Assembly (NCBI GenBank): GCA_963727625.1
Contig: CAVSHR010000005.1
Coordinates: 928,001-992,000, forward strand
DNA length: 64,000 bases
Source of the DNA: an uncultured delta proteobacterium
GTDB lineage: Bacteria > Desulfobacterota > Binatia > UBA9968
Direction: 5' to 3'
Made by a program: the position numbers and the translations under genes. Positions 3,197 to 46,773 of the stretch are shown here, in pieces. The notes under the pieces were generated by a model. The model had not been told where the DNA came from, made no database searches, and saw only the letters and a list, made by a program, of their open reading frames with translations. The first letter of the stretch is position 1. The number at the start of each line of letters is the position of its first letter.

Positions 3197-3371
3197 AGCC
3201 ACCTCCATCGTAGGTCAATAATCGCTACCTAAGCCGCGTCCCGATGTGGATGAGCCAATCCGCGGTCGCTCTTAGTCGCGATCTATCAGGCTCGATATGC
3301 AAGCGCAACCAATAATTTGTCAGCGCATTCCGAGAGAAGAACAAGCCCAGGAAACGGAAAACAGGAAAACA

Positions 3372-3394
3372 GGGTCAGGTCTTTTCTTTTGACA
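3372..3394 (+). repeat. RAYT-associated upstream motif GGGTCAGGTCTTTTCTTTTGACA
   Basis: Resembles the reconstructed motif GGGGTCAGGTCTTGCAATACGACA at the same position upstream of the second RAYT. Confidence 0.7.
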
Positions 3395-22694: not shown

Positions 22695-22770
22695 ATTGGA
22701 GTGCGGGAGTGGTGGAGTATTGGAGTGATGCTCCGGAACCCAACACTCCAATAATCCAATACTCCATCAC
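22695..22770. repeat. 8-bp-periodic inverted repeat array (TGGAGTAT / ATACTCCA)
   Basis: ttggagtgcgggagtggtggagtattggagtgatg ... caacactccaataatccaatactccatcac; the two arms are roughly reverse complements. Confidence 0.7.
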
Positions 22771-23159
22771 AGCAATTCATTCGGTTTCTTGTACCGCGCC
22801 TTGGGGACGATCTCGGCCACCGTTCCGCCAGGCGCGCGAAACTTGATGGGAATCACACCGGGGTCGCTGATGATCTCGCAGCCGAAGCGTTGCAGTTCGG
22901 CTGCCGACTTCGTCATGTCGTCGACCTCGATGGCAAAGTGATGGATGCACGGCCCCATACCCGAGGCACGCGATTCGGCCGATTCCTCGCTGTTGTATTT
23001 GATCAAAGCCAGGTCGATGGCGCCGTCAGTCAGGTGGCGCGAGGTATGGTCCCGCACCTGGCCGGTCTCGACCTCGACGAATCCGAAACCTTTATGGTAA
23101 AACTCCGTCGCCTTTTCCAGATCGTCGACCTTGAGCGCGATATGAACGATACGCGACAT
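22767..23159 (-). CDS. VOC/glyoxalase family protein (copy 1)
   Basis: IVHIALKVDDL, IHHFAIEVDD, APGGTVAEI. Confidence 0.85.
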   Translation of the reverse strand: MSRIVHIALKVDDLEKATEFYHKGFGFVEVETGQVRDHTSRHLTDGAIDLALIKYNSEESAESRASGMGPCIHHFAIEVDDMTKSAAELQRFGCEIISDPGVIPIKFRAPGGTVAEIVPKARYKKPNELL

Positions 23160-25719
23160 AATCCCTCCCCATCGGCAGCTTAGCTCTAACATAGTCGCGA
23201 GAAATGATTCAACTCGGCCGCGCTGGAGCTATCCGCCGCTAATCCAACTTGGCCAATCTATCGGCCGCGGCCGCAAGCGTCTCGTCCTTCTTGCAGACCG
23301 CGAAGCGCGCGAAATGCTTGCCGAGCTGTTTGTCCGATTCCTGATAGAATGGGCTGGCGGGAATACAGGCGACGCCGACTTGGCTGATCAGCCATCGGGC
23401 GAATCGAAAATCGTCTTGAACATGCGCCGGCGCGGCACCGCGCAAGTCGATCATAATGAAATAACTGCCGCTCGGTTTGAAAACCTTGAAACCGGCGTTT
23501 CGTAAAATATTCACCATGCGGTCGCGTCTAGCTTGGTAATCGCTCTGCAATTGCTCAAAAAATGAAAATGGCAGCTTCAGCGCCGTAGCGGCGGCGGCCT
23601 GCAGCGGCGAAGCTACCGCATAGGTAATAAACTGATGCGCCTGATTGGCTGCGTTCACCAGCGCCGCGGGTCCGCCAGCCCAACCGATTTTCCAGCCGGT
23701 GACGCTGAAGGTCTTGCCCAGGGAACTGATCGTCAGCGTGCGATCCGCCATACCGGGCAGCGTAGCCAGGCGCGTGTGGCTCGCATCGTCGTATAGTATA
23801 TGTTCGTAGACCTCCTCGGTCACTGCGATGACATCGTGCTTCGCGCAAAGCTCGGCGATGATTGGTAGTTCCTCACGGGAAAAAACTTTGCCGGTGGGAT
23901 TGTGCGGCGTGTTGATGAGAATTACGCGGGTGCGACGATTGAAAGCGCGCGCCAGCTCGTCGGGGTCGAACGTCCACTGATCGCCGCGCAACGGCACATA
24001 GCGCGGGACAACGCCGGCCATGAGCAAATTCGGCACGTAGGTGTCGTAGACCGGCTCGAAGACGATCGCTTCATCGCCCGGACCGGCGAGCCCAAGAACC
24101 GCCGCGAAAACCGCTTCGGTCGCGCCGGCGGTCACCAGCACCTCGGCCGGCAGAGCCATGCCTAAATTCTAGGCTGGACATTTACACGCTCTTTCAATAT
24201 CAAAGGCTGGAGGGAGACAAAATCATGGCTCAATCGACTGATTTCAACGTTGTCGAAGCGACCATCGACGACATCCACAGCGCTTACAAATCGGGCCGGC
24301 TCACTTGCCGGAAAGTAGTGCAAATGTATCTCGATCGCATCGAGGCCTTCGACAAAAAGGGGCCGGCGATCACTGCGATCATCACCGTCAACCCCGAGGC
24401 GCTCCAAGATGCCGATCGTCTCGATGCCGCAGACAAATCGTCCGGACCGGTCGGACCGCTGCACGGCATCCCGGTGATCGTCAAGGATCAGGCCGATGTC
24501 AAAGGCATGCCGACCACGCTGGGTTCGCTGCTGTTTAAAGATTATTTCCCCGACCGCGACTGCTTTGTGGCGGAAAAATTGCGCAAAGCCGGCGCGATCC
24601 TTTTGGGCAAGGCGACCCTCGGCGAGCTAGGCGGCGGCGACACCCATGGTTCGCTGTTCGGTTCGACGCGCAATCCCTACGACACTGCGCGCACGGTCGG
24701 CGGGTCGTCCGGCGGCTCCGCGGCGTCGGTATCGGCGAATTTCTCGACCGTTGCCGTCGGCCAGGAAGGTTTGGCGTCGATCCGCCGTCCATCGACGTGG
24801 AACTGCATCACCGGCATGCGTCCCTCCGCCGGTCTTGTCAGCCGCAGCGGCGTCTATGGCTGCTGGCCGGAAATTTTCGGCTCTTTGGGCCCGATGGCGC
24901 GCACCGTCAAAGATCTATCCACGTTGCTCGATGCCATGGTTGGCTACGACCCGGAAGACCCGATCACCGCGCGCGGCGTCGGCCAAGTTCCGGATAGTTT
25001 CACAAAATTCTTGGACAAAGACGGCCTCAAAGGCGCACGCATCGGGATCCTGCGCGAGGCCATCGGTCTTAATTCCGAACCCGATTCGGAAGACTTCAAA
25101 AAAATTACCGAAGTGTTTGGCCGAGCCGTCGAGGAGCTAAAAAGCGCCGGCGCCGAAATCGTCGATCCGATCGTGATTCCGAAGATCAAAGAGCTGCTCG
25201 CCAAGCGCTCAGGCGGGCCGGGGGATACCGGGCAGTCCTTCAAGAATTATTTCGGACGCAGCGCCAATCCGCCGTTCAAAACACCGCAGGAAGTCGTCGC
25301 CGCGCCCGACTTCGCCAAAGTGGTCAAACATTCCCAGGATCGCTTCAAGAGAAATCCCGATGCGGCAAAGCACTACGAGAGCCTGCGCGCGCAGGATGAG
25401 CTGATGACCAATTTCTTAAAGGTGATGGCCGATCACAGGCTCGACGCCATCGTGCACAAAGCCGTGGAGCACCAGCCGACGCTCATCAGAGACGGCATCG
25501 CTCCGCCCTTCGTCGATCAAAAGGGCGCACCGCACTTAAACACCTTTCTGGTCTACACGCCGACCATCGTCGTGCCGGCCGGTTTCACCCGCGACAATTT
25601 ACCGGCGGGAGTTTGCTTCATCGGCCGTCCCTATGACGACGGCCAATTGATCAAGTTTGCGTACGCCTACGAACAGGCCACGCATCATCGCCGGCCGCCT
25701 GCGAGCACGACGGCGCTGT
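22789..25719 (+). repeat. Direct repeat copy 1 (~2.93 kb; VOC, aminotransferase fragment, amidase)
   Basis: Aligns with 43493-48268 once the IS1182 element and its target duplication are removed. Confidence 0.95.
23239..24159 (-). pseudogene. N-terminally truncated class I/II aminotransferase (copy 1)
   Basis: Begins at EVLVTAGATEA, normally an internal motif; NTPHNPTG and SLGKTFSVTGWKIG present; the conserved DEVY reads EEVY. Confidence 0.7.
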
Positions 25720-25918: not shown

Positions 25919-27319
25919 CTAGAGCGACCGCAGAAAGTTTAGCAAGTCCTGCTTGTCATTCTCGCCGAGCGCAGCGAAGTTGTCGATGACTGCGTTGGCT
26001 TCCGACCCGTTGCGCCCGTTGCCGCTGCGGTGCAGACGGATCGCTTCGAGCAAGTCGGTGGTTCGCCCATCGTGAAGAAAGAAAATGCGTTGGCCCAGGC
26101 CCCAGAGCGGCGCGGTGCGAAAATCTCTCGGTCCCGCCTGTCCTTGGCTAACACCGTCTTCCAGTCCAGGCCCCATATCGTGGAGCAAGAGGTCGGAATA
26201 GAGATCGACGGGCTTGTTCCGCAGCGCCGCCACCGTCGCGTTGCCGGTATAGAGCTTGGGCGTGTGGCAGGCCGCGCAGCCGATTTGACCGAACAGGACC
26301 CGCCCCCGGGCGATGGAGTCGCTTCCACCCGGCGCGCTCGCCGACGGTTTCGGCGGGGCCAGGAAGCGCATGAAGAAGGCGAACTTCTCGATGCCGCCCA
26401 TCATATCTTCGTGTGTCATAGCGTCGGTATTGGTGCTGTCGTTGGGGGTCGTCGCAAACTGGCAGTCCGGCGCCTCGTCCCGCTCGCTCGGAAACATCTC
26501 GTTGCTGATGCCCATCTCGACGTTGTAGGCTTCGGCGGCAAAGAGCATCAAGGATTTGTTCTGCGCCTTCCAACCGAAACGGGCGACGGTTCCGTCGTTT
26601 GTACTGGTGTTGGCGATGCCCGATACCGGCTTACCTTGGATTCCGCCGAAGCGAACGAAACCGGCCCGGCCGCGGATGCCTAGCACCGTCTTTTTTTCCT
26701 GATCGGCTGCCTTATTGGCGAGGATCGCGCTGTCGGGAATCTGCTCGATGAGCCCGGCACCGAATAGCGGGGTGGGAATCCGCAAGGCAATATTGTTCTT
26801 TGCCAGCTCCAAGTTGAAATCGGGCTGAGTCGACGCGCATCCCGGAGCGTCCGATCGACCGGCGATGGTGAACAGCGCCTGGACTCCACCGTCGGGGTTC
26901 CCATCCGGATATTTGATCAGTCGGGCTTCCCGCACCGGTCCGTTAAGTGTAATGAACGGAGGAATGGCATTGGCAGCGCCGTTCTTTTTGGCGAAGGCCA
27001 CCTGCGGATTGACAAACGGGCTCGCTCCCCCTGGGGCAGGGTAGGAGTGGCAGCCGGCGCAGCTATCGAGATTCATCCTCGGCCCGAGCCCGTCGGTAAC
27101 TCCTTCTTCGCTTTCGAACTCTTCCTTCCCCGCATTGAAAAAAGCGACCTGGGTTAAAGACAACCCATTGATCGGTTCCCCGGCGCTTGGCGCGCCTGAA
27201 CGAACCCCAGGATCTCTGGCTTTGATGGCGCTGGCGGCGGAAGAGTGAAGGGATGAGGAAAGCAGGTAAATGCAGAGAAAGACAACGATTGCGAGCGGGC
27301 CAAGCAAGCTTCGTTTCAT
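25919..27319 (-). CDS. Di-heme oxidoreductase (DHOR/thiol oxidoreductase-like) family protein
   Basis: Signal peptide; DGLGP..SCAGCH, PLFGAGLIE, RFGWKA, GCAACHTP, YSDLLLHDMG, FRTAPLWG, FLHDGR. Confidence 0.85.
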   Translation of the reverse strand: MKRSLLGPLAIVVFLCIYLLSSSLHSSAASAIKARDPGVRSGAPSAGEPINGLSLTQVAFFNAGKEEFESEEGVTDGLGPRMNLDSCAGCHSYPAPGGASPFVNPQVAFAKKNGAANAIPPFITLNGPVREARLIKYPDGNPDGGVQALFTIAGRSDAPGCASTQPDFNLELAKNNIALRIPTPLFGAGLIEQIPDSAILANKAADQEKKTVLGIRGRAGFVRFGGIQGKPVSGIANTSTNDGTVARFGWKAQNKSLMLFAAEAYNVEMGISNEMFPSERDEAPDCQFATTPNDSTNTDAMTHEDMMGGIEKFAFFMRFLAPPKPSASAPGGSDSIARGRVLFGQIGCAACHTPKLYTGNATVAALRNKPVDLYSDLLLHDMGPGLEDGVSQGQAGPRDFRTAPLWGLGQRIFFLHDGRTTDLLEAIRLHRSGNGRNGSEANAVIDNFAALGENDKQDLLNFLRSL

Positions 27320-27326
27320 ATAATAC

Positions 27327-28148
27327 TCAGTGTTCTAATCGCTTGAGGCGCCGGCTCGCTGTCGCATAATGTATTCCCAGGTGAGACGCGATCTCATGGA
27401 GCCGATAGCCGTGCTCTTTATAGGCCTCGACGATGCCTTTATTGTTCTTTCGGTTCAGGACCTTCTCCAGCTTGGGCCGGGCCGCTCTCACTTGCGCGCG
27501 AGGAATTTCTTTGAGCTTTTGTGTCCTCGGCGAGTGTCTCTCGATGAACGCCTCGCTTCCGAGATAAATCTGCCCCTTTAGCTTGTCCCAAGGACGGTTC
27601 TCCGATCCTTCCCGTACGAATTCCCGATACCGTTTCTGGGCCACCCGCCGGTTCTTTCCAAACTGCCCAAGCGTCCAATCGGTAGTCAAAAAATCCAGCG
27701 CCGATGCTAAACCGGCGGTAGACCGGTAACTGCTCCATTTCCAACTGCCCATAGCCGCTTTGCCTTTGACTCTGATGGGGTTGAGCACGATGTAGCGGCA
27801 AAGCTCCAAGAGATAGGATTCCTTTTCCACTAGGATCACTTTAAAACGTCCTTGGAATAAATGGCCGACCCGCTTGTGCAAGCGATTGAACGACTGGGTG
27901 TAAACTCCGTTGAGCTGGCGCATCCCGAGACTTAAGTTTGCCTTGGGCGTTTCCACCAGGAGATGATAGTGATTCGCCATCAAACAGTAGGCGTGACAGA
28001 TCCAGCCGTAACGGGAAACAACTCCGGCCAAAGTATCCAAGAATAGCTCGCGGTCGGCATCCGTAAAAAAGATCTTTTGCCGGGCGTTGCCTCGGCCGGT
28101 CAGATGGTAAATCGCGCCGGGAAACTCCAGCCGAAGGGGACGGGCCAT
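27327..28148 (-). mobile_element. REP-associated tyrosine (HUH) transposase, second paralog
   Basis: MARPLRLEFPGAIYHLTGRGN, NHYH, RYIVLNP, WKWSSY, C-terminal HTH. Confidence 0.9.
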
Positions 28149-28181
28149 GACCGACTTAAATCAAAGCTGCTGTCGTATTGC

Positions 28182-28319
28182 GATTCTGCTGAAAAAGTCC
28201 GATTCCAAAAATTAGAAAAAATATTTCGCTCACGGTTGCTCTATAACGCACGATCGGATCTTGGTTAATGATTTTCTTCATCCCGAATTTTCGTGAATGG
28301 GGGGTTTTTCAGCAGAATC
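28182..28319. mobile_element. 138-bp MITE with the same terminal inverted repeats as the IS1182-family element
   Basis: TIR GATTCTGCTGAAAAA / TTTTTCAGCAGAATC; flanking direct repeat GTATTGC at 28175-28181 and 28320-28326. Confidence 0.85.
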
Positions 28320-28367
28320 GTATTGCAAGACCTGAACATCCCGCTGGAAATTTCAAGCAGGGTCCGA

Positions 28368-29681
28368 TTACGCGCTCTGTTGGTAAAATTTGTTATTTTT
28401 TCCTTTGACTGAAATTTTTGGCTTCCGTATTTGCGTTTTAATCAACGATCCCGGACTGACCTTGCTCTTGGTATTACCCTTTTCGGGGCGCATCTCATAC
28501 TCGCGCTCCTCGGTGAGCAGCTTGTAAATGATTCGACAGAGGTGGCGTCCCAGAGCTCGAATCGCCTGGTTGTGTTTTTTTCCCTCGCTTCGTTTCTTCT
28601 CGTAGTACCTCTGTGACTGTGGCACATACCTTCGATGACGATCGAGCGCTACCATCATCGCCGCTTTAGCTCGCGTGTTGACGTGCTTGGGTGGCCTGGA
28701 TCCTTGATACTTCCCCGAACTGTTGTCCAGAGTGGACATCCCTAGATACAGCGCCAAACTTCCTTCCTTTGAGAAGCGCTCGACGGTGCCGATCTCTCCG
28801 GCTAGCTCAGCAGTGCAGATCGTTCCGAATCCTGGAATGGACAATAAAATCTTAGCCATCTTGGAATCCTTGGCGACTTCTTTAATCTTAGCCCTCAACG
28901 CTTTGATCTTCTCGTCAAGTTCAAGACACCGTTGCGCGTCTTCCTGGATCATTTCGCTGACCCAATCAACCTCTTCGCTGAAATAGGCTCGCTTCTGCCA
29001 GTCCTCGGCGAGCCTCGCATACTTTCTACCCACAGCGGGGATCTTCAGTAAGGTCGACGGTCGCAGCCGAGCGAGTTGGGGAAGGGTTGGCGCACTGAGC
29101 AGAAAGTTCAAAAACCACTGGTTGCCGGCGTTCTTGGTGATTTCCAACAGTCCGGGGCAAACCGCTTGCAGATCGGTTTGCAGATTACTGATCACACGGA
29201 CCCGTTCGTCGACTAGCCTGCGTCGGCGCCGGGTGAGCCGCTTGAGAACCTCGTTTGCCTGGGGCGTTCCCTTGACTGCCTGCAACACTTCCTTGGCCAA
29301 CGGCAGATGATCGCTTAGCTGAAACAGCTCCAATCCCTTGCGCGCATCGATCCGATCGCTCTTGGCCGCTCCAGGAAAGATCTCCTTAAATCGCGCCAAC
29401 TTTAAATTGTTGATGTTATACAGCCGGTAGCCGCGCCGACGAACCATCGCATCCAACGGCCGGGCGCAACCATTGTACCCCTCCATCGCTACCGCGACTT
29501 CGCAGTCTCTGACCTTTTGATGTTTCTCTATGCGAGAAAAAAACTCCGCAAACCCTTCGGACCGGTGCGCTATCTCAAATTCTTCCAACACCTCCCCGCT
29601 CGGTAGCCCGATCGCCACGCTGTGGCACCGATACCCTACATCCACACTGACCCGAAGCTCTACTGATCTTTTGTCTGACAC
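28368..29681 (-). CDS. IS110 family DEDD recombinase
   Basis: SVDVG, AMEG, KSDRIDA, IPGFG, LYLG..NSSG, YYEKKRSEGK; GGAGG RBS. Confidence 0.9.
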   Translation of the reverse strand: MSDKRSVELRVSVDVGYRCHSVAIGLPSGEVLEEFEIAHRSEGFAEFFSRIEKHQKVRDCEVAVAMEGYNGCARPLDAMVRRRGYRLYNINNLKLARFKEIFPGAAKSDRIDARKGLELFQLSDHLPLAKEVLQAVKGTPQANEVLKRLTRRRRRLVDERVRVISNLQTDLQAVCPGLLEITKNAGNQWFLNFLLSAPTLPQLARLRPSTLLKIPAVGRKYARLAEDWQKRAYFSEEVDWVSEMIQEDAQRCLELDEKIKALRAKIKEVAKDSKMAKILLSIPGFGTICTAELAGEIGTVERFSKEGSLALYLGMSTLDNSSGKYQGSRPPKHVNTRAKAAMMVALDRHRRYVPQSQRYYEKKRSEGKKHNQAIRALGRHLCRIIYKLLTEEREYEMRPEKGNTKSKVSPGSLIKTQIRKPKISVKGKNNKFYQQSA

Positions 29682-29699
29682 GTAGCCCTCCTTCTGCAG

Positions 29700-29915
29700 A
29701 TCAAGATCGATTCATCATCCTTCGGTCTCGTCTACTTACAGAGCCACGTATTCGGTGAGAATATGGCACCATCCCGGTCGACCCCTCAGATGATGCAGGT
29801 GACGAGGGCGGCATTTCAAGCCGTTGCGAACCTGAATGAACAGGCCACTGACCCCAAGAGCCACACCCTCGTCAAAATCTCTTTACAGGATTCTTTTAAA
29901 TCCTGCTACCTGCTA
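29700..29915 (-). ncRNA. Candidate IS110 bridge RNA
   Basis: Non-coding left end with a 5' hairpin (29886-29905), a stem-enclosed loop containing TTGGGGTCAG (the target) and a second loop containing CGGGATG and GTAGA (donor ends); RNA boundaries approximate. Confidence 0.75.
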
Positions 29916-30000
29916 AATTCCTATGGTAGACCCCAACATCTGACCCCAAATAACCAAAGCCTGACACCGGGTCCCCCATTGTTTGCGCAAAAACTCTGCG

Positions 30001-30033
30001 TCCTGCTACCTGCTTATTCCGATGGTAGACCCC
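30001..30033 (-). mobile_element. Relic of a second IS110 left end
   Basis: tcctgctacctgcttattccgatggtagacccc versus tcctgctacctgctaaattcctatggtagacccc at 29901-29934. Confidence 0.7.
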
Positions 30034-30434
30034 TTAAATCTTGTTCGGTATGTCCATAAAAATTTTCCAGTGCCAGCAAATACGAGACCGATGCCGACGC
30101 AGGAAAAAAAGTAACCACTTAAAAGTCTACTAGCATAAAAGTCACTGAACCCCACCTTCAGTAAAATCGGGATACCCATAGATAACATGCAAACTGTCAA
30201 CAACGAGTAATAATCAATAAACCTGTCGATATACTTGGCTAAGAAATTCGACGGATTAGGATTCTTGTGGAGAAGGAAAATCCCCGTCAATACGCCTCCA
30301 ACAAAGCCAAAAGCAATGATGATGTACACCGTTAAATGCGGAAGTGAGTCAACGTCAAATGGGTTTCGTATAACATTAGAACCCACAGTCAGCCCTATAA
30401 TTAATCCCAATACAATTCCATTTACGTATTTCAT
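30006..30434 (-). CDS. Multi-TM membrane protein, possible orphan immunity protein
   Basis: About 4 hydrophobic segments, AT-rich, downstream of the RHS gene and its first immunity candidate. Confidence 0.6.
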   Translation of the reverse strand: MKYVNGIVLGLIIGLTVGSNVIRNPFDVDSLPHLTVYIIIAFGFVGGVLTGIFLLHKNPNPSNFLAKYIDRFIDYYSLLTVCMLSMGIPILLKVGFSDFYASRLLSGYFFSCVGIGLVFAGTGKFLWTYRTRFKGSTIGISR

Positions 30435-30615
30435 TGTCCGCTTGAAAATTTACACCTGAAAGATGCCGTCAAAAACAACGCCTGTAGGTGTAAGAGTTTG
30501 AACGTCCGTTCTTTGTGTAATTTGGACTTTCGTTTCCAAGGGCTACTTCCCATTTGATAAATAATACGAAAAGTTGTGCGAGCAACTAACAGCTGTACCG
30601 CTTTCACAGGTCCAC

Positions 30616-30882
30616 CTAATGGGGAGCAATCCTTAGTGCTATTTCACGAAATACGAAAAAAGACAGTACCAGAACGCCTAAAGTTATCCACGAGACATTC
30701 CGCCAAAAGATTCCTCGTTCAGTCAGATACCTTCTCCCAAAATATTGAATCGCCAGTGGATTGCCGAAGATGGCGGCATCAAATAGTTTGACGCCGGGCT
30801 TTCGATTCATGAGCATGGCCACTTGTGCAACCACGAATAGTATAAAACCGCAAAATCCGAAGAGAGATAAAATCAATCCCAT
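30616..30882 (-). CDS. 2-TM membrane protein, putative cognate immunity protein
   Basis: ATG 16 bp after the RHS stop; MGLILSLFGFCGFILFVVAQV...YLTERG..WRNVSWITLGVLVLSFFVF. Confidence 0.65.
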   Translation of the reverse strand: MGLILSLFGFCGFILFVVAQVAMLMNRKPGVKLFDAAIFGNPLAIQYFGRRYLTERGIFWRNVSWITLGVLVLSFFVFREIALRIAPH

Positions 30883-30898
30883 AAGCAACCCCGATGTA

Positions 30899-33800
30899 TC
30901 AACAGCGACATTTTTCCTTGGGGGGTGGTGTGCAATTAACCGTACAATAAACTTCGGTATTGCTTTCAGTCCCCGAAGCACCAGGGGGAAATAAAGGCAG
31001 TCCAACGCCTAACGTAAAACCTTGTACCTTCCCCCCAACCGTAATTATAGTTAGGGAAGCACCCATCGATAAATTCCAATTCACACTCTTCCCGGCTAAA
31101 TCTCCCCATACGATTCCTCCAAAAACATCAATACCCACATTTAAGCCACCGACTTGCGTCTCGTTATCACAGCCGGGTGGAACCGGATGTCCCGCCCCGG
31201 ATTCAAAGTGACCGAACTCCCCGGTTGCAGGATCGACGTACCAACCCATGCTACGTTCGCCACCTCTATTGCCTACGACTCCACTATAACCGAAGCCAAA
31301 GGGTATTACCTTAAACAAACCCACAGGGTCAGTGTAAGTTAATGGATTATTGGTAACATAGGAATAAAAATTAACGTCTCCACCGTAATATGTCACCGGA
31401 TCTTCACTGATAAATCTCTGAAGTTCCGGGTGATAATACCTCGCCCGGTAGTAAAATAGTCCCGTCCCGTCGTTCTCTCTTCCGGTGTACTGGTACGAAC
31501 TGCTGTTAGAATTCCCTGTGAACGTCGCTTTCCCAAACGGCTCGTAGGTGTATTCGGTCTGCACGACACCCGAGTTATCTGTTACTGCGACAGGAGAGCC
31601 GAGAGCGTCGGTCAGAAAATTGCCCGTCACGCCCGCGACAACGTCCGTTCGGGTTAGAAACTCGTCGATGGCAAGGCCGGGCAAAATATTGGCGAGGATC
31701 GTCGCGCCGGACGTTTCCTGCACCAGATTCAGTCTGTCGTAAAGGAACTCTGTCAGATTCCCGTTGATCGTCTTGCTCTCCCTTTTCCCCAATCCATCGT
31801 AAACAAAACTCGCGCTCACTCCCGGCCCGCTGATGCCGATAAGCTGATTCCTCGCGTTCCACGTGTAGGTCGTCGTCCCGCCGGCGTCAGTGATCGTCTG
31901 AAGGTTACCGTTGTTGTCGTATGTGAGAGTCTTTTCGGCAAACGTCGTCTGATTATTGGCAGCGTTGTACGCGGTAGTGTTGACAGCCTGCGGTATTCCG
32001 GTGCGGGCAAACGAACCGCCAATCCGGGTTCGATTACCGTTTTTGTCATACTCATAAGTCAGATTTCCGAGCACGGTGATCCCATTCTGTTTATAAGTCA
32101 TACTCGTCAATCGCGAGGCTCCATCGTAGCCGTATTCTACCAAAACCCCGTTGGGGAGTGTAAGGCTCGTCCGCCGTCCGGCCGCGTCGTAGGTGTAACT
32201 CGCTATGGACGAGCCCTGCATGATCTGCGTAAGGCGGTTCACATTATCATAGGAGTAGGTGACGCTCGACTGTCCCGCCACGGTCATGCTGGCCCGCCGT
32301 CCTGCGGCATCGTAGGTGTAGCCGACCGATCCCTGCGGCGTGGTCTCGGAGGTCAATCGGTCCAAGCCGTCATACGTCCGGGTAATCATTCCGGCGACGG
32401 AGTCGTTTACCTGGAGCAGCCGGTTACCTTTGTCGTAGGTGAAAGTTGTCGTGGACGTGTCTTGATAGGTCACGCCCGTGCGACGATTGAGGGCGTCGTA
32501 GGTGTAGATCGTCGCCTGGCTCTTGCGGTCGGTAAACTGCGACACGTTCCCGTTGAGGTCGTACTGATAACCCTCGGTGCGAAGCAAGGGGTCTTTTCGC
32601 GTCGCAAGCCGGTCCATGTTGTCGTAGGTATAGATCGTCGGGTTTGAGCGTGCGTCGGTGACACTCAGCAGGTTGCCGTTGGGGTCGTAACTAAAATTCG
32701 TCTGCCCATTTATCGGATCGGTAATCTTGGTGAGTTTATTGAGGCCGTCATAGTCAAATATGGAGGCATTACCGCGCGGATCGGCCTGGCTAATGACTCG
32801 GCCAGCCGAATCAAGTAGCCCGTTCGTAACGTTGCCCAGGGGATCGGTAACCGACACGACATCTCCCAGGTCGTATCCAAGAGTCGTTGCCTGCCCGAGA
32901 GGGTTTTTTACAGTCACGGGCTGGCCGGTCTGATTGTTAACGAAGACCGTTGTTTCGCCGAGCGGGTTGCTCGCGCTAACTAAATTGCCTTCCAAATCAT
33001 AATTTAACGTCGTTGTGTGATTAAGTGGATCGGTGATGCTCGCCAACTGGTTGAAGTGGGGCTCATAGGTGAAAGTCGTCGTCACGGCATCCGGAGTGCC
33101 GTCGAGGCGTGTTACGCTCGTCGTATTCCCCAAAGAATCGTAAGTGTAGGAGGTGGTCCGATTGAGCGCATCGACTTGAGACAAGCGAAAATTGGTTCCG
33201 GACTCAAGGTTGTAAGTGATCGTTTGTTCTTCAGGCAAGCCCAGTGCGCGTGTGTCGGAGACAATCTGCCGGTCTGCATTGAAAGTGACACGTCTTACAT
33301 TGCTGCGCGGATCCGTCACGTCGGTTTGGGTAACGTTGCTTCCGTTCATCGTGTAGTCGAACTGATAGATACCGCCGTCGATCATTGTCTGTCGCGTGAC
33401 TTTCCCGGTAGTGTCATATTCGTTGGTAATGTAAACAGTGCCCCTCGCGTCCTTGACCGTCGTCATTCGGTTGAGCGTGTCGTAGGTGTATTCGTTCGTT
33501 TCGCCGTTGGGATCGGTGACGCGAAATAAACGTCCGCTCGCGTCGTATTCGTAGTCGACGGTCCGGCCGGCATTATCCCGGGCTTGGGTGACTCGATGGC
33601 TTCCGTCGTAGGTAAACTCAATCCAACGACTACCCGGGCTGGTGATCCGAATAATGTCACCGGAGCCGGCCCGTTCAATGGTGGTTACGTTTCCATTGCG
33701 GTCCGCAATGCTGAGAAGCGCCGCCTGGGTTTGGCGTTGCGTCAGTTCACTGTCGGGAAAGTAGTAGCGCATTCCATCCTTGCGCTTCAGTTCCCAAACG

Positions 33801-36178
33801 CCGACCCAGCGAATTGTCGATTTGTACCAAATCGACTGAGTCGCATCATGCTCAAACACCGCATCGCCATAACCCGTGCCGGGGGAAATGCGAGTGAAAT
33901 GGAAACCACCTCCGTCCGCCATGATAAGATCCACGTCAGTGTAGAGATGACCGATAATATACATGTCATAAGGGTGGCTCGTGCCGAGCCCAAAGGCGCG
34001 GCTCACCGTGTCACCCGGCCGGTAGGTACGGGTTAAGGTAATTGGCATTACACTGTCGGCAACTTGGAGATCGGTCTTTTTATAGACGAACAGTCCGGTG
34101 GCCGCGTCGACAGGATCACCGACTGCGCAGTTCAAATCAGAAGGGCAGGACGGCGGTCCGCATAGATAGCCGCACCCTCCTTGGTACATGCCGCCGGTAA
34201 ACTCGTAGATCGAAATCCCATCGTCGGGAATGACCTGCTTGCCGTCTTCAAGGACCGTTCCCTGGCCGTACACGTACCAGCCGCGATATTCTTCTGGGTC
34301 GTAATGCCAAAAGGCAAAGCGCGTACCGGGAAGTTGCTTATAGCCATTGGGGTAGTAGATTCGCGCACCGATGCCGCCGGGGTTGCGGATATAAGCGCCG
34401 CCGGGCTGTGCGGTGAAATAGACCGGGACATCCACCGCAGGCAATGGGAATGGGGTACGATCCGTAGGAATCGCTGTGAGGCTCACTTCATTCACCGGCT
34501 TCTGATCACGCCCGATGAGCTCGCCATTGGCCGGGAGACGAAGCTCCAGATCTTTGATCTTCGGCGTTGTAATGATGAACTCGCTGCTTGGCTTCTGGGG
34601 AATCGCCACAGCATGTTCCGTGTCGATCTTTGGCAGCCAGATCGTGAATGGAAGGACCAGCGTCTGCCCGTCTTTGATCTCCAAGCCATATTCGAATAAG
34701 CCATGATCTTCTTCAGAGCGAAGGACGGATGAATTATCGCTCACGCGCCGCCGGCCCTTGTGCCCATCGATAATCAATTCGCCCCAACCGGCACCGATGT
34801 CCGCCAGCAAGAATCTCCCTGTCTCATCGGTCGTTGCGCTCTTTGATTTCCCCCCATATTCGCTCTCGACTTCCATCTCGACGTTTGCCAGCGGCAAGCC
34901 ATGGAGGTCCAAAACCTGACCGGCCAGAGCGGTCACACCGGCTGGAGCTTGCAGCGCCGGCAAATCCTGCCAATCCGAATGCGGCTTGCCGTCCTTGAGT
35001 TTGCCTTTCCATGCTAAGCCATCGTCGGTGTCTGCATCTGATGAACTCGACGGCTGGATTGAAATCTGGGAAGTGGCTGAAGACGAATTGCTCGAATCCA
35101 ACGGGGAATTTCCGCCTCCGGCTACGGATTTCGTTGAAAAACTAATGCCCGATACTGGCAAAGACAGTCCGTCCCTATCGACCGCACCGTTAACCGATAC
35201 GGTATAAGTCGACCCAAGGAGCAAAGGCGACTCGGGCGTAATAAACGCCAGAGATCCGTTCTCTGCGGGAACCACAGAGATTCTTTCGAGCCCTTTGGGA
35301 CCGCTTAAGGAGACCGTGTTCGGGTTGACTGTTTCCGCACGTAGTGGCTTGGAGAAGCGCAGAGACACCAGGCTCTCTATGTCGACATCGACAGAACGAT
35401 CGAGGGGGATCGAAGCGACTAATGAGGGAGCGTCCGTCGATGACGCTATAAGATCGGCCGGAAATGTCGGTTCGAGCGTAAAACGCTGGGTCGAGGGATC
35501 GTACAACTCGCCGTTATTGAGTGCATTCCCTGCTCCGTCGGCACCGCCCCAAAGCAGGACCCGTCCATCCGAGAGTAAAGTAGCGCTGTGGTCACGCCTC
35601 GGAGTTAACGTGGCGGGTAAAGAGACAGCAGATGGATCGACGGCGTCCCAAAGCTCCGCAGCGTCGAGCGCCTGGCCGTTACTTCCGACTCCTCCTGTGA
35701 TCAAGACGTGACCATCGGAGAGTAAAGTGGCGGTATGATGTGCTCGCGGGGTAACTCCAGCTGATGGCAAGATGGAGAACGTCTGTGTGGCAGGATCGAA
35801 AAGTTCCGCAGTCGAAACGACTTGCTTACCGTTGCCGAGCCCTCCCAGAATGAGAACCAGGCCATCGGGCAACATCGTGGCTGTATGCCAAGCACGGCCT
35901 TGAATCATCGTCGCGGGAAGCGTTGTGAGAGTGTTTGTCGTAGGGTTCCAGATGGACGCCGCCTTCATTCCCCCCGCAGGGCTCTCGCCGCCCAACAAGA
36001 GCAGCGTGCCGTCTGAAAGCTTTGCTGCCGTTTGGCCGGGATTCAGATTGGGCGATGCCGGTAAAGATTGAGAGCTCAGTGATATGGGCAAAACCGCGCT
36101 TGCAACACAGATAGCGCATACCCATATAATCGGTGCCAATTTGCATTGCTTTTTGAAGTTTAAAAACAATTTCTTCAT
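30899..36178 (-). CDS. Secreted RHS/YD-repeat polymorphic toxin with Kelch, Ig-like and carboxypeptidase-regulatory-like N-terminal domains
   Basis: Signal-like N-terminus; R..HTAT.L.DG.VL..GG Kelch repeats; FSKPL Ig domain; GDPVD.ATG; many YD repeats; YYRARYYHPELQRFISEDP...NNPLTYTDPVGL core. Confidence 0.92.
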   Translation of the reverse strand: MKKLFLNFKKQCKLAPIIWVCAICVASAVLPISLSSQSLPASPNLNPGQTAAKLSDGTLLLLGGESPAGGMKAASIWNPTTNTLTTLPATMIQGRAWHTATMLPDGLVLILGGLGNGKQVVSTAELFDPATQTFSILPSAGVTPRAHHTATLLSDGHVLITGGVGSNGQALDAAELWDAVDPSAVSLPATLTPRRDHSATLLSDGRVLLWGGADGAGNALNNGELYDPSTQRFTLEPTFPADLIASSTDAPSLVASIPLDRSVDVDIESLVSLRFSKPLRAETVNPNTVSLSGPKGLERISVVPAENGSLAFITPESPLLLGSTYTVSVNGAVDRDGLSLPVSGISFSTKSVAGGGNSPLDSSNSSSATSQISIQPSSSSDADTDDGLAWKGKLKDGKPHSDWQDLPALQAPAGVTALAGQVLDLHGLPLANVEMEVESEYGGKSKSATTDETGRFLLADIGAGWGELIIDGHKGRRRVSDNSSVLRSEEDHGLFEYGLEIKDGQTLVLPFTIWLPKIDTEHAVAIPQKPSSEFIITTPKIKDLELRLPANGELIGRDQKPVNEVSLTAIPTDRTPFPLPAVDVPVYFTAQPGGAYIRNPGGIGARIYYPNGYKQLPGTRFAFWHYDPEEYRGWYVYGQGTVLEDGKQVIPDDGISIYEFTGGMYQGGCGYLCGPPSCPSDLNCAVGDPVDAATGLFVYKKTDLQVADSVMPITLTRTYRPGDTVSRAFGLGTSHPYDMYIIGHLYTDVDLIMADGGGFHFTRISPGTGYGDAVFEHDATQSIWYKSTIRWVGVWELKRKDGMRYYFPDSELTQRQTQAALLSIADRNGNVTTIERAGSGDIIRITSPGSRWIEFTYDGSHRVTQARDNAGRTVDYEYDASGRLFRVTDPNGETNEYTYDTLNRMTTVKDARGTVYITNEYDTTGKVTRQTMIDGGIYQFDYTMNGSNVTQTDVTDPRSNVRRVTFNADRQIVSDTRALGLPEEQTITYNLESGTNFRLSQVDALNRTTSYTYDSLGNTTSVTRLDGTPDAVTTTFTYEPHFNQLASITDPLNHTTTLNYDLEGNLVSASNPLGETTVFVNNQTGQPVTVKNPLGQATTLGYDLGDVVSVTDPLGNVTNGLLDSAGRVISQADPRGNASIFDYDGLNKLTKITDPINGQTNFSYDPNGNLLSVTDARSNPTIYTYDNMDRLATRKDPLLRTEGYQYDLNGNVSQFTDRKSQATIYTYDALNRRTGVTYQDTSTTTFTYDKGNRLLQVNDSVAGMITRTYDGLDRLTSETTPQGSVGYTYDAAGRRASMTVAGQSSVTYSYDNVNRLTQIMQGSSIASYTYDAAGRRTSLTLPNGVLVEYGYDGASRLTSMTYKQNGITVLGNLTYEYDKNGNRTRIGGSFARTGIPQAVNTTAYNAANNQTTFAEKTLTYDNNGNLQTITDAGGTTTYTWNARNQLIGISGPGVSASFVYDGLGKRESKTINGNLTEFLYDRLNLVQETSGATILANILPGLAIDEFLTRTDVVAGVTGNFLTDALGSPVAVTDNSGVVQTEYTYEPFGKATFTGNSNSSSYQYTGRENDGTGLFYYRARYYHPELQRFISEDPVTYYGGDVNFYSYVTNNPLTYTDPVGLFKVIPFGFGYSGVVGNRGGERSMGWYVDPATGEFGHFESGAGHPVPPGCDNETQVGGLNVGIDVFGGIVWGDLAGKSVNWNLSMGASLTIITVGGKVQGFTLGVGLPLFPPGASGTESNTEVYCTVNCTPPPKEKCRC

Positions 36179-43422: not shown

Positions 43423-43478
43423 AAAACCCAATACTCCACCATTCCAGTACTTCAATCCACTGATATTCCGTCACTCCG
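43423..43478. repeat. Degenerate 8-bp-periodic ATACTCCA array
   Basis: cccaatactccaccattccagtacttcaatccactgatattccgtcactccg. Confidence 0.55.
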
Positions 43479-43863
43479 ACTCTTTGGCTTTTTTGTACCG
43501 CGCCTTGGGGACGATCTCGGCCACCGTTCCGCCGGGCGCGCGGAACTTGATGGGAACCACACCGGGGTCGCTGATGATCTCGCAGCCGAAGCGTTGCAGG
43601 TCGGCTGCCGACTTCGTCATGTCGTCGACCTCGATGGCAAAGTGATGGATGCACGGCCCCATACCCGAGGCACGCGATTCGGCCGATTCCTCGCTGTTGT
43701 ATTTGATCAACGCCAGGTCGATGGCGCCGTCAGTCAGGTGGCGCGAGGTATGGTCCCTAACCTGACCGGTTTCGACCTCGACGAATCCGAAACCCTTATG
43801 GTAAAACTCCGTCGCCTTTTCCAGATCGTCGACCTTGAGCGCAATATGAACGATGCGCGACAT
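43471..43863 (-). CDS. VOC/glyoxalase family protein (copy 2)
   Basis: Near-identical to 22767-23159 with different last residues. Confidence 0.85.
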   Translation of the reverse strand: MSRIVHIALKVDDLEKATEFYHKGFGFVEVETGQVRDHTSRHLTDGAIDLALIKYNSEESAESRASGMGPCIHHFAIEVDDMTKSAADLQRFGCEIISDPGVVPIKFRAPGGTVAEIVPKARYKKAKESE

Positions 43864-44506
43864 AATCCCTCCCCATCAGCAGACTAGCTTTAACATAGTC
43901 GCGAGAAACGATTCAACTCGGCCGCGCTGGAGCTATCCGCCGCTAACCCAACTTGGCCAATCTATCGGCCGCGGCCGCAAGCGTCTCGTCCTTCTTGCAG
44001 ACCGCGAAGCGCGCGAAATGCTTGCCGAGCTGTTTGTCCGATTTCCGATAGAATGGGCTGGCGGGAATACAGGCGACGCCGACTTGGCTGATCAGCCATC
44101 GGGCGAATTGAAAATCGTCTTGAACATGCGCCGGCGCGGCGCCGCGCCAGTCGATCATAACGAAATAACTGCCGCTCGGTTTGAAAACCTTGAAACCGGC
44201 GTTTCGTAAAATATTCACCATGCGGTCGCGTCTAGCTTGGTAATCGCTCTGCAATTGCTCAAAAAATGAAAATGGCAGCTTCAGCGCCGTAGCGGCGGCG
44301 GGCCTGCAGCGGCGAAGCTACCGCATAGGTAATAAACTGATGCGCCTGGTTGGCTGCGTTCACCAGCGCGGCGGGACCGCCAGCCCAACCGATTTTCCAG
44401 CCGGTGACGCTGAAGGTCTTGCCCAGGGAACTGATCGTCAGCGTGCGATCCGCCATACCGGGCAGCGTAGCCAGGCGCGTGTGGCTCGCATCGTCGTATA
44501 GTATAT

Positions 44507-46344: not shown

Positions 46345-46773
46345 GTATATGTTCGTAGACCTCATCGGTCACTGCGATGACATCGTGCTTCGCGCAAAGC
46401 TCGGCGATGATTGGTAGTTCCTCACGGGAAAAAACTTTGCCGGTGGGATTGTGCGGCGTGTTGATGAGAATTACGCGGGTGCGACGATTGAAAGCGCGCG
46501 CCAGCTCGTCGGGGTCGAACGTCCACTGATCGCCGCGCAACGGCACATAGCGCGGGACAACGCCGGCCATGAGCAAATTCGGCACGTAGGTGTCGTAGAC
46601 CGGCTCGAAGACGATCGCTTCATCGCCCGGACCGGCGAGCCCAAGAACCGCCGCGAAAACCGCTTCGGTCGCGCCGGCGGTCACCAGCACCTCGGCCGGC
46701 AGAGCCATGCCTAAATTCTAGGCTGGACATTTACACGCTCTTTCAATATCAAAGGCTGGAGGGAGACAAAATC

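What the first reader, a model, noticed from the sequence alone, without database searches (positions are those of the whole stretch)
29700..29915. Readable bridge RNA apparently programmed against the RAYT-associated repeat
Seen (minus strand): target TTGGGG-TC-AGGTCTTG, donor CGGGATGT-TC-TACCAT. A stem TGACGAGGG/CCCTCGTCA (29800-29874) encloses TTGGGGTCAG (29848-29857, a 10-nt target match), an internal hairpin, and CTTGA, which can pair with TCAGG using one G:U. A second loop holds CGGGATG (29770-29776, left donor), a hairpin, and GTAGA (29731-29735, complement of core plus right donor TCTAC). Known: this order matches the bridge RNA architecture of IS621, which targets REP sequences. Inference: a new RNA-guided recombinase with a TC core aimed at a different repeat class, and a candidate programmable tool.
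Basis: partly seen in the sequence, partly recalled or inferred. Interest (0 to 1): 0.88.

Follow-up and report, generated by a model that had tools for sequence, protein, structure and literature searches.

The report
Bridge-RNA insertion sequence aimed at transposon ends
This is an intact IS110-family jumping gene whose own guide ("bridge") RNA matches both its ends and its insertion site, the end motif of another mobile gene, which makes it a new but unsurprising member of a known class of RNA-guided recombinases.

Summary
Window 28336-29928 (minus strand) is one intact IS110-family element. It has a 247-nt left end, a 437-aa DEDD/Ser recombinase gene and a 32-nt right end, with the dinucleotide TC on both sides. 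The left end folds into two stem/internal-loop/hairpin modules. In 55 distinct homologues 93% of pair cells are standard pairs, against 84% after shuffling, and 24 of 39 pairs show compensatory changes.

Across relatives the right target guide covaries with the right flank (0 of 2000 permutations reach the observed value). The right donor guide covaries with the element's first bases. All 53 distinct right ends place TTGnAA exactly 17 nt before the left-end TACCAT, so a promoter would form only in the excised circle.

The target, wTGGGG-TC-AGRYYT, is the terminal motif found about 40-60 nt upstream of RAYT-like Y1 transposase genes. The 138-bp repeat lying between the element and the Y1 gene is not the target. 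It is a MITE of a DDE insertion sequence.

Verdict: a real bridge-RNA element and a new member of a known kind. Its activity and RNA expression were not shown.

The parts
28336..29928 (-). Complete IS110-family element (1593 bp), flanked by the core dinucleotide TC on each side
   Evidence: Junction sequences. The same conserved ends are found in related loci. The right boundary is confirmed by an occupied/empty site pair.
29929..29936 (-). Left target TTGGGG (29936-29931) plus left copy of the core TC (29930-29929)
   Evidence: In 69 distinct left flanks of relatives, positions -4 to -1 are G in 56, 66, 54 and 68.
29923..29928 (-). TACCAT: first bases of the element (right donor) and the -10-like hexamer of the circle-junction promoter
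29885..29906 (-). 5' stem-loop (GCAGGAUUU / AGAAUCCUGU)
   Evidence: Minimum-free-energy fold only. Covariation was not tested for this hairpin.
29800..29874 (-). Target-binding module: outer stems, internal loop and hairpin
   Evidence: Helices 1-3: 19 pairs, 12 with changes on both sides; 89-99% of cells paired.
29848..29857 (-). Left target guide UUGGGG-UC-AG, same sequence as the target top strand
   Evidence: Guide and flank agree more in own pairs than in permuted pairs at positions -7 to -5 (0 of 2000 permutations reach the observed value).
29816..29822 (-). Right target guide GGCUUGA, pairs with TC-AGGTC (two G-U pairs). The A at 29815 sits at the handshake position and could pair with donor T7.
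   Evidence: Handshake rule taken from passages of PMC11208158.
29713..29795 (-). Donor-binding module: outer stem CAUCAUCU / AGGAUGAUG, inner stems and hairpin
   Evidence: Helices 4-7: 20 pairs, 12 with changes on both sides.
29770..29776 (-). Left donor guide CGGGAUG, same sequence as the right-end terminus CGGGATG(T)
   Evidence: Nearly invariant in the relatives, as is the right-end terminus.
29731..29735 (-). Right donor guide GUAGA, complement of TC-TAC. The C at 29730 sits at the handshake position and could pair with target G7.
   Evidence: Guide AUAGA goes with element start TCTAT in 4 of 4 loci where both were read.
28368..29681 (-). Recombinase gene, 437 aa, GTG start, with AAGGAGGG at 29693-29686
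   Evidence: Pfam PF01548 and PF02371. NCBIfam NF033542 scores 174 bits against a cut-off of 140. D14, E67, D109, D112 and S322 are conserved.
28336..28367 (-). Right end, holding the -35-like TTGAAA (28356-28351) and the left donor CGGGATGT (28343-28336)
   Evidence: All 53 of 53 distinct right ends have TTGnAA 17 nt before the junction.
28326..28335 (-). Right copy of the core TC (28335-28334) plus right target AGGTCTTG (28333-28326)
28182..28319 (-). 138-bp MITE with inverted ends GATTCTGCTGAAAAA and 7-bp duplication GCAATAC. It is not part of the target.
27327..28148 (-). RAYT-like Y1 (HUH) transposase gene, 273 aa. The IS110 element occupies its upstream terminal motif.
   Evidence: Pfam Y1_Tnp. 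NCBIfam REP_Tyr_transpos scores 70 bits, below its cut-off of 80..
29936..29968 (-). Two further target-like units in the left flank: GGTGTCAGGCTT (29968-29957) and GGGGTCAGATGT (29947-29936)
30001..30029 (-). Remnant of an older related element: core TC plus the first 27 nt of a left end, preceded by AAGGGG
3371..3382 (+). Unoccupied target-like site AGGGTCAGGTCT, 52 nt before a second Y1 gene (3424-4275)

Best explanation
Window 28336-29928 (minus strand) is an intact insertion sequence of the IS110 group.

Shown:
- Its left end encodes an RNA of about 200 nt with a 5' hairpin and two stem/internal-loop/hairpin modules.
- The first loop holds a sense copy of the left target plus core (UUGGGG-UC) and an antisense copy of core plus right target (GGCUUGA).
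- The second loop holds a sense copy of the element's last bases (CGGGAUG) and an antisense copy of core plus its first bases (GUAGA).

Inferred, by analogy with IS621:
- The element excises as a circle. That joins TTGAAA in the right end to TACCAT in the left end at a 17-nt spacing and creates the promoter for the RNA and the recombinase.
- The DEDD/Ser recombinase binds the RNA. One loop pairs with both strands of the circle junction and the other with both strands of the target.
- Strands are exchanged at the TC core.

Shown by comparison with relatives: the natural target of this subfamily is wTGGGG-TC-AGRYYT. This motif marks the outer edge of the terminal repeats of RAYT-like Y1 transposase elements and of orphan copies of those repeats. 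The element therefore lands just outside another mobile element, with its right end facing it.
For: Family membership:
- Pfam PF01548 (E 8e-19) and PF02371 (E 5e-15).
- NCBIfam 'IS110 family RNA-guided transposase' scores 174 bits against a cut-off of 140.
- D14, E67, D109, D112 and S322 are kept in 89-94% of 54 distinct relatives.
- S322-G323 aligns with the Ser-Gly of IS621 in the PDB match 8wt6 (E 2.7e-5).

Fold, on 55 distinct sequences, namely the window plus 54 distinct of the 80 loci fetched:
- 93.2% of 2076 pair cells are standard pairs, against 84.3% in shuffles (0 of 500 shuffles reach the observed value) and 37-52% when partners are slid by 1-3 columns.
- 24 of 39 pairs show changes on both sides.

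Guides and flanks:
- Right target guide against right flank, 53 distinct combinations: 3.53 of 5 Watson-Crick pairs in own pairs against 2.78 in permuted pairs (0 of 2000 permutations reach the observed value).
- Left target guide against left flank, 59 combinations, positions -7 to -5: 1.27 against 1.01 (0 of 2000).
- Donor guide AUAGA goes with element start TCTAT in L023, L030, L036 and L037. In the other loci read, GUAGA goes with TCTAC.
- The handshake positions fit the IS621 rule. The A after the core-pairing GA in the target loop can pair with donor T7. The C after GA in the donor loop can pair with target G7. Neither pairs with its own substrate.

Promoter:
- All 53 of 53 distinct right ends carry TTGnAA exactly 17 nt before the junction.
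- No sigma-70-like site lies upstream of the RNA in the integrated copy.

Target:
- Consensus built from 69 left and 67 right flanks.
- 10 of 27 distinct Y1 N-termini in this genome have GGTCAGRYYT within 130 nt upstream, at -52 to -62 plus one second copy at -91.
- 10 of 62 related loci with at least 900 nt of right flank have a Y1 homologue there. Five have the ATG 39-74 nt after the right end and five are in the opposite orientation.
- A DNA contig of run X1 joins the right end of a 95-99% similar element to 30 letters identical to an unoccupied site of this genome...CACAGGG-TC-AGG|CCTGAG....
Against: - No experiment or read-level RNA data. The RNA-library contigs that hold relatives cannot prove transcription.
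- This genome has one full copy and six truncated left-end fragments, so this copy may no longer move.
- After CGGGAUG the left donor guide matches only the T of the core. IS621 was described as pairing with the core in all four interactions.
- Some relatives break the pairing rule. Seven of the 12 distinct left flanks read in one Methylococcales genome have GGTG where the guide has GGGG. L025, L032, L036 and L038 have a mismatch within +3 to +4 of the right target.
- Position +6 is T in 52 of 67 right flanks and is not explained by pairing.
- Only 10 of 62 loci have a Y1 gene nearby.
- The Y1 protein is below the NCBIfam RAYT cut-off (70 bits against 80).
- The best-defined terminal-repeat class has 14 copies in the genome, far fewer than classical REPs.
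- The window's own 16-nt target is not repeated in the genome: 38 hits against 24 control hits at up to 3 mismatches.
Confidence: 0.85

Rival explanations
1. The element is a real bridge-RNA insertion sequence, but this copy is a stranded relic that no longer transposes in this genome.
For: There is only one full copy. The other copies are truncated left ends: C8 twice, C9, C2, C6 and window 30001-30029. A MITE has since landed 10 bp from its right end. No promoter-like site precedes the RNA in the integrated state.
Against: The reading frame is open, at the full length of its closest relatives, and keeps all five catalytic residues. Both loops and both ends are intact. Lack of a promoter in the integrated state is expected for this family. 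A 95-99% similar element occupies, in another sample, a site that is empty here.
Confidence: 0.3
2. The left end is only a structured 5' leader that controls recombinase expression. Site choice is made by the protein, and the matches to the flanks are subterminal repeats or chance.
For: The two short antisense matches are not significant on their own in this copy. The target motif is almost the same in all relatives, so a protein could read it. Older work proposed that the non-coding ends regulate expression (passage).
Against: The right target lies outside the element, yet it covaries with the loop bases (0 of 2000 permutations). Examples are guide AUCUGA with flank AGAT, ACUUGA with AAGT and GUCUGA with GGAC or AGAC. 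A one-base change in the donor guide goes with the matching change in the element's first bases in 4 of 4 loci. The layout follows the experimentally proven IS621 plan, down to the handshake positions.
Confidence: 0.05
3. The link to Y1 (RAYT-like) elements is incidental. The element simply uses any wTGGGG-TC-AGRYYT in the genome.
For: 52 of 62 related loci show no Y1 gene within about 1.4 kb. In this genome the 13-nt motif with up to 1 mismatch is only about twice as common as its control, 53 against 23.
Against: Spacing is fixed in six independent cases: five loci have a Y1 ATG 39-74 nt after the right end, and the window has about 40 nt once the MITE is discounted. Five more loci sit at the opposite end of a Y1 gene, as expected for inverted terminal repeats. 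The motif is present upstream of 10 of 27 Y1 genes, where I estimate about 0.03 by chance. Right flanks in other samples continue as the Y1 terminal repeat CCTGAGTWTTGACT....
Confidence: 0.1

Closest known systems
IS621 of Escherichia coli (IS110 group), with its bridge RNA
   Same: - DEDD RuvC-like domain plus Tnp domain with a Ser nucleophile.
- Long left end and short right end.
- RNA encoded in the left end, with a 5' hairpin and then a target loop and a donor loop. Each loop has a sense guide on its 5' side and an antisense guide on its 3' side.
- 2-nt core present on both sides of the element.
- Promoter rebuilt at the circle junction.
- Handshake positions that fit the other substrate.
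- Natural targets linked to RAYT-type repeats (REPs for IS621).
Sources: passages of PMC11208160 and PMC11208158.
   Different: - The protein is only distantly related: phmmer E 2.7e-5, over the Tnp domain only.
- The core is TC, not CT.
- The target loop is as conserved as the donor loop across relatives from many phyla. IS621 relatives were described as having a variable first loop.
- The left donor guide does not cover the whole core.
- The target is the outer edge of the inverted terminal repeats of multi-copy Y1 elements, not a high-copy REP.
ISPpu10 and ISPpu9 of Pseudomonas putida (IS110 family, inserted in REP-type intergenic repeats)
   Same: IS110-family elements whose insertions all fall in copies of one conserved intergenic repeat (abstracts seen). 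The commonest Y1 terminal repeat here also contains a short palindrome, TCAGGCCTGA, right at the insertion point.
   Different: For ISPpu10 a target-encoded stem-loop 5' of the site was shown to add specificity (abstract only). No such requirement was tested here, and the window's own target has no palindrome.
[quoted passage not shown]
   Same: A member of the wider IS110 family that lands specifically in the terminal repeat of another mobile element. I saw only the title, in the reference list of PMC11208160.
   Different: The IS1111 group carries its guide RNA in the right end and has long subterminal inverted repeats. The element here is of the IS110 group, and its host element is a Y1 (HUH) transposon rather than a DDE transposon.

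Membership tests
IS110 family, IS110 group (bridge-RNA recombinase elements) | Recombinase with an N-terminal DEDD RuvC-like domain and a C-terminal Tnp domain | tested here: met
   PF01548 at residues 12-176 and PF02371 at residues 277-361. NF033542 scores 174.1 bits against a cut-off of 140.
IS110 family, IS110 group (bridge-RNA recombinase elements) | Catalytic D, E, D, D and Ser residues present | tested here: met
   D14, E67, D109, D112 and S322 are conserved in 89-94% of 54 distinct relatives. D109/D112 and S322 align with the matching IS621 residues. The alignment of the N-terminal part to IS621 is weak.
IS110 family, IS110 group (bridge-RNA recombinase elements) | No terminal inverted repeats; a short core sequence on both sides; left end much longer than right end | tested here: met
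   TC on both sides. Left end 247 nt, right end 32 nt. Only a 3-bp inverted pair, ATG...CAT, flanks the donor site, read directly from the sequence.
IS110 family, IS110 group (bridge-RNA recombinase elements) | Left-end RNA with a 5' hairpin followed by two stem-loops with large internal loops | tested here: met
   The two modules are supported by covariation: 24 of 39 pairs are compensatory and 93.2% of cells are paired. The 5' hairpin rests on the energy fold only. No Rfam family matched at E up to 1.
IS110 family, IS110 group (bridge-RNA recombinase elements) | [quoted passage not shown] | tested here: met
   UUGGGG-UC has the sequence of the top strand. GGCUUGA pairs with TC-AGGTC. Covariation.
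IS110 family, IS110 group (bridge-RNA recombinase elements) | Loop 2 pairs with the left donor and the right donor, each including the core | tested here: inconclusive
   The right donor guide GUAGA includes the core and covaries in 4 of 4 loci. The left donor guide CGGGAUG matches 7 nt, but the next bases, G-U-G, match only the T of T-TC.
IS110 family, IS110 group (bridge-RNA recombinase elements) | Promoter reconstituted at the right end-left end junction of the circle | tested here: met
   In sequence only. TTGAAA, 17 nt, then TACCAT in the window. All 53 of 53 distinct right ends have TTGnAA at 17 nt. No circle or transcript was observed.
IS110 family, IS110 group (bridge-RNA recombinase elements) | RNA-dependent, reprogrammable recombination | not testable with these tools
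   Needs a recombination assay.
RAYT / REP system (as the identity of the target repeat) | Y1 (HUH) transposase that reaches the curated RAYT model | tested here: not met
   NF047646 scores 70.1 bits, below its cut-off of 80. Pfam Y1_Tnp is met. The protein carries an extra C-terminal helix-turn-helix region.
RAYT / REP system (as the identity of the target repeat) | Gene flanked by inverted copies of the repeat | tested here: met
   Met for paralogues on contigs C4, C8 and C9, with arms of 29-48 nt about 920-950 nt apart. Not shown for the window's own Y1 gene, whose 3' side runs straight into the next gene.
RAYT / REP system (as the identity of the target repeat) | Single-copy gene with a repeat present in high copy number (recalled as typically over 100 per genome; the abstract of PMC2817692 says the same) | tested here: not met
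   29 places with Y1 homologues. 14 copies of the best-defined repeat class. These elements look more like an insertion sequence than a domesticated RAYT.

The most novel reading that the evidence does not exclude
This IS110 subfamily may be a dedicated parasite of Y1 (RAYT-like) mobile elements. Its target loop would have stayed fixed across relatives in MAGs titled Nitrospira, Binatia, Acidobacteriota, Beta- and Gammaproteobacteria and Chlamydiales because it reads the conserved outer edge of the Y1 terminal repeat, perhaps the Y1 cleavage site.

The tandem duplications of the DNA just outside that edge are seen at both occupied and free sites. They may record a so far undescribed single-strand nicking or copy-out step at this junction, carried out by one of the two elements.
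Probability: 0.3. Interest if true: 0.6.

Novelty: new member of a known kind. Interest (0 to 1): 0.4.

Why it matters
It adds a well-resolved, distant bridge-RNA system. The whole guide code (four guides, handshake positions, TC core, junction promoter) can be read from sequence, and relatives are available for comparison. That makes it a reasonable candidate for bench testing alongside IS621-type enzymes.

It also shows a natural case where the target loop has been held constant because the target is the end of another mobile element. This is useful for thinking about how these elements choose safe landing sites.

It does not change the picture of what IS110 elements are.

Tried and rejected
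- Rfam scan of 27000-32000 at E up to 1 found no family over the left end. The only hit was a chance-level OmrA-B match elsewhere.
- The plain energy fold of the left end closes the loops on themselves and is not informative about the loops. RNAalifold pairs CAUCAUCC with the donor guide instead of with the 3' strand. I rejected that pairing because only the 3'-strand pairing shows two-sided changes.
Its two other full copies lack the target, and it is a MITE of the DDE element at 44503-46349. The claim was rescued only when a motif search showed inverted pairs about 1 kb apart around Y1 genes.
- I considered a sigma-54-like reading of some right flanks (TGGCATG-N4-TTGAC). I dropped it because these are Y1 terminal repeats.
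- I considered that conserved bases beyond +5 of the right flank pair with an extended guide. No consistent register was found by eye, and this was not tested formally.
- Protein search of the plasmid collection found only relatives below 30% identity, annotated 'IS110 family transposase', so no named element could be assigned.
- Contigs from three RNA libraries (X15, X17, X19) hold 90-95% similar relatives of the whole element. This does not show transcription, a start or a strand.
- The one joint reported there (it skips 29748-29833, one contig at depth 2.3) was not interpreted.
- Spread among relatives: 5 of 30 related genomes, besides the window's own, have a match at E up to 1e-40. This count includes one genome flagged unpublished (G005).
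Supplementary files of the papers were not opened. The supplementary tables of PMC11208160 may already list this subfamily.
- No literature search for the tandem flank duplications was made.

Full report
**What is there.** On the minus strand, the region 29930-28334 reads TC, then a 247-nt non-coding left end beginning TACCAT, then a 437-aa open frame (29681-28368; GTG start preceded by AAGGAGGG), then a 32-nt right end ending CGGGATGT, then TC. The protein carries the two Pfam domains of IS110 transposases (PF01548, E 8e-19; PF02371, E 5e-15). It scores 174 bits on NCBIfam NF033542, 'IS110 family RNA-guided transposase', whose cut-off is 140.

I aligned 54 distinct open frames. These came from the 66 frames of at least 380 aa among the 80 fetched loci plus the window. 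D14, E67, D109, D112 and S322 are each kept in 89-94% of them. The only solved structures found by sequence are IS621 (8wt6, E 2.7e-5) and ISCro4 (9t56, E 1.7e-4). Both match over the Tnp domain only, where S322-G323 aligns with the Ser-Gly of IS621. So this is a distant member of the family.

**Check of the observation.** Every motif lies at the stated coordinates (details are in the observation check). I shuffled the left end 5000 times, keeping dinucleotide content. The 10-nt sense match to the target is reached in 20 shuffles, the 7-nt sense match to the donor in 721, and both together in 4. The two 5-nt antisense matches are reached in 4298 and 4486 shuffles, so in this copy alone they prove nothing.

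**The RNA fold.** The genome-contig collection gave 114 relatives, of which 80 loci were kept. Their left ends are 70-95% identical to the window's. I aligned the window's 29875-29711 with the 54 distinct homologous stretches that carry both anchor blocks (alignment A3). On that alignment I counted a hand-drawn structure with two modules, each made of an outer stem, an internal loop and a hairpin.

Results for this structure:
- 93.2% of 2076 pair cells are standard pairs. The shuffled mean is 84.3%, and 0 of 500 shuffles reach the observed value. With partners slid by 1-3 columns the figure is 37-52%.
- 24 of 39 pairs show changes on both sides.

RNAalifold found the first module by itself. 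It paired the 5' strand of the second module with the donor guide instead. The pairing with the 3' strand is the one that shows two-sided changes, so I kept that one. The 5' hairpin at 29906-29885 rests on the energy fold alone. [quoted passage not shown] The core is included each time (passage). Here:
- Loop 1 has UUGGGG-UC on its 5' side and GGCUUGA on its 3' side. The latter pairs with TC-AGGTC over seven positions, two of them G-U.
- Loop 2 has CGGGAUG on its 5' side and GUAGA on its 3' side.

Among relatives the right flank varies and the guide follows it. Examples are AUCUGA with AGAT, ACUUGA with AAGT, GUCUGA with GGAC or AGAC, and GCCUGA with AGGC.

Statistics:
- Right target guide against right flank. 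Of the 74 rows extracted, 53 distinct combinations remained after dropping rows without a right flank and duplicates. Own pairs give 3.53 Watson-Crick pairs at +1 to +5, permuted pairs 2.78, and 0 of 2000 permutations reach the observed value.
- Left flank. It is nearly constant (G at -4 to -1). At -7 to -5 own pairs still agree more than permuted pairs: 1.27 against 1.01, 0 of 2000, over 59 combinations.
- Donor guide. It reads AUAGA in L023, L030, L033, L036 and L037. The element start could be read in four of these and is TCTAT in all four. In the other loci read, GUAGA goes with TCTAC.

The base after the core-pairing GA is A in loop 1 and C in loop 2. The A can pair with donor T7 but not with target G7. 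The C can pair with target G7 but not with donor T7. That is the handshake rule worked out for IS621 (passages).

Points that do not fit:
- After CGGGAUG the left donor guide matches only the T of the core.
- Seven of the 12 distinct left flanks read in one Methylococcales genome have GGTG against a GGGG guide.
- L025, L032, L036 and L038 carry a mismatch at +3 or +4.
- T at +6 (52 of 67 flanks) is not explained by pairing.

**Promoter.** The right end holds TTGAAA exactly 17 nt before the point where TACCAT follows once the ends are joined. All 53 of 53 distinct right ends of relatives have TTGnAA at that spacing. In the integrated copy no sigma-70-like site precedes the RNA. One site was found against 0.9 expected, and it is internal. 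This agrees with the published idea that excision rebuilds the promoter (passage). No circle or transcript was seen here.

**What the target is.** The 138-bp repeat between the element and the Y1 gene (28182-28319) has inverted ends and a 7-bp duplication, GCAATAC. Its two other full copies lack the target. Its ends are those of a 1.85-kb element at 44503-46349 that encodes a DDE transposase. It is therefore an unrelated MITE that landed 10 bp from the IS110 element.

The window's 16-nt target is not a repeat: 38 hits against 24 control hits at up to 3 mismatches. The family-wide motif gave a different picture. TGGGGTCAGRYYT with up to 1 mismatch gives 53 hits against 23 control hits. Several hits form inverted pairs about 1 kb apart. 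Each such pair encloses a Y1 transposase gene flanked by inverted repeats of 29-48 nt that begin GGKGTCAGGCCTGAGTATTGA....

The genome has 29 places with Y1 homologues. Of 27 distinct N-termini, 10 have GGTCAGRYYT within 130 nt upstream, at -52 to -62, and one locus has a second copy at -91. By my own estimate about 0.03 would be expected by chance. Several more N-termini carry near variants.

The window's Y1 gene (28148-27327) is 54% identical to a second one at 3424-4275. That second gene has a free site, AGGGTCAGGTCT, 52 nt upstream. Without the MITE, the IS110 element would sit about 40 nt before the first gene's ATG.

In other genomes, 10 of the 62 loci with at least 900 nt of right flank have a Y1 homologue there. 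In five the ATG is 39-74 nt after the right end. In five the Y1 gene points the other way, as expected if either inverted end can be used. Two more loci have a Y1 fragment in the left flank. In multi-copy genomes the right flanks resemble each other for about 20 nt and then diverge.

Contigs of other samples support this. A 95-99% similar element in run X1 abuts 30 letters that are identical to an unoccupied site of this genome...CACAGGG-TC-AGG|CCTGAG.... That is an occupied/empty pair, and it also confirms the right boundary. A relative in run X17 abuts a sequence that differs by one letter from the Y1 terminal repeat.

**How far 'RAYT' is right.** The Y1 protein matches the curated RAYT model below its cut-off (70 bits against 80). 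The genes are numerous. The best-defined repeat class has only 14 copies against 0 control hits. These elements behave more like insertion sequences with inverted ends than like a domesticated RAYT with hundreds of REPs. 'RAYT-like Y1 element ends' is the accurate name for the target.

**Comparison and novelty.** Bridge RNAs were predicted in 85.7% of catalogued IS110-group elements, and targeting of REPs by the family is long known (passages). ISPpu10 and ISPpu9 are further repeat-targeting members (abstracts). So the finding is a new, distant member of a known kind.

Three things are particular to it. The core is TC. The target loop stays constant across relatives from many phyla, whereas the first loop of IS621 relatives was described as variable. 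The target is the outer edge of another transposon's terminal repeat. No close relative was found in the plasmid collection: all 1060 matching records are below 60% identity and the ten listed are at 25-30%. Among 30 related genomes, 5 have a match at E up to 1e-40. That count includes one unpublished genome.

**Left open.** The DNA just outside the Y1 repeat edge is often tandemly duplicated. This is seen next to the IS110 element (17 bp twice in L038, 13 bp twice in L056, and three target-like units at window 29931-29968). It is also seen at free Y1 ends (window about 3345-3375; L103, L107, L109, L115). I have no tested explanation for it.

Noticed in passing
window 29931-29968 and about 3345-3375; loci L038, L056, L014, L015, L025, L103, L107, L109, L115: The 8-17 bp (39 bp in L101) just outside the Y1 terminal motif, ending at or near GGGG|TC, are tandemly duplicated two to four times. 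This occurs both where the IS110 element is inserted and at free Y1 ends. The mechanism is unknown.
   Followed up: partly
window 44503-46349 and 28182-28319: A 1.85-kb DDE insertion sequence (560-aa ORF with DDE_Tnp_1_6 and DUF772) interrupts the second copy of a duplicated segment (22740-24092 against 43444-46641). A 138-bp MITE with the same inverted ends and a 7-bp duplication sits between the IS110 element and the Y1 gene. Two other full copies and one partial copy of the MITE are in the genome.
   Followed up: partly
own genome, 29 places (L098-L126); contig C5 near 844823-844914: There is a large and diverse set of Y1 (RAYT-like) transposase paralogues, many with inverted terminal repeats. 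One repeat class has 14 copies, including an inverted doublet of two repeats about 45 nt apart with no gene between them.
   Followed up: partly
own genome: L003, L004 (contig C8), L007 (C9), L009 (C2), L010 (C6); window 30001-30029: Six truncated left ends of this or a sister IS110 element, each starting at GGGTC|TACCAT with a different left flank. Two of them keep a complete target-binding module. L003 lies about 20 nt from an intact Y1 terminal repeat.
   Followed up: partly
L062:1-60: One copy of the element is inserted in the DNA that encodes the left target guide of another copy (flank GGTGTGGCTCTTGGGG|TC). This is self-targeting, expected because that guide has the sequence of the target's top strand.
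   Followed up: no
window 30899-36178 (minus); L096:1-270: A 1759-aa RHS-repeat protein with Kelch and Ig-like domains lies upstream of the nest of mobile elements. Y1 elements on contig C8 also abut sequence whose translation looks RHS-like by eye. The C8 sequence was not scanned against any family library.
   Followed up: no
L051-L060, L073, L077 (one Methylococcales genome): Twelve copies of a relative carry an insertion of about 100 nt with a long palindrome just after the first 20 nt of the left end, upstream of the two loops.
   Followed up: no
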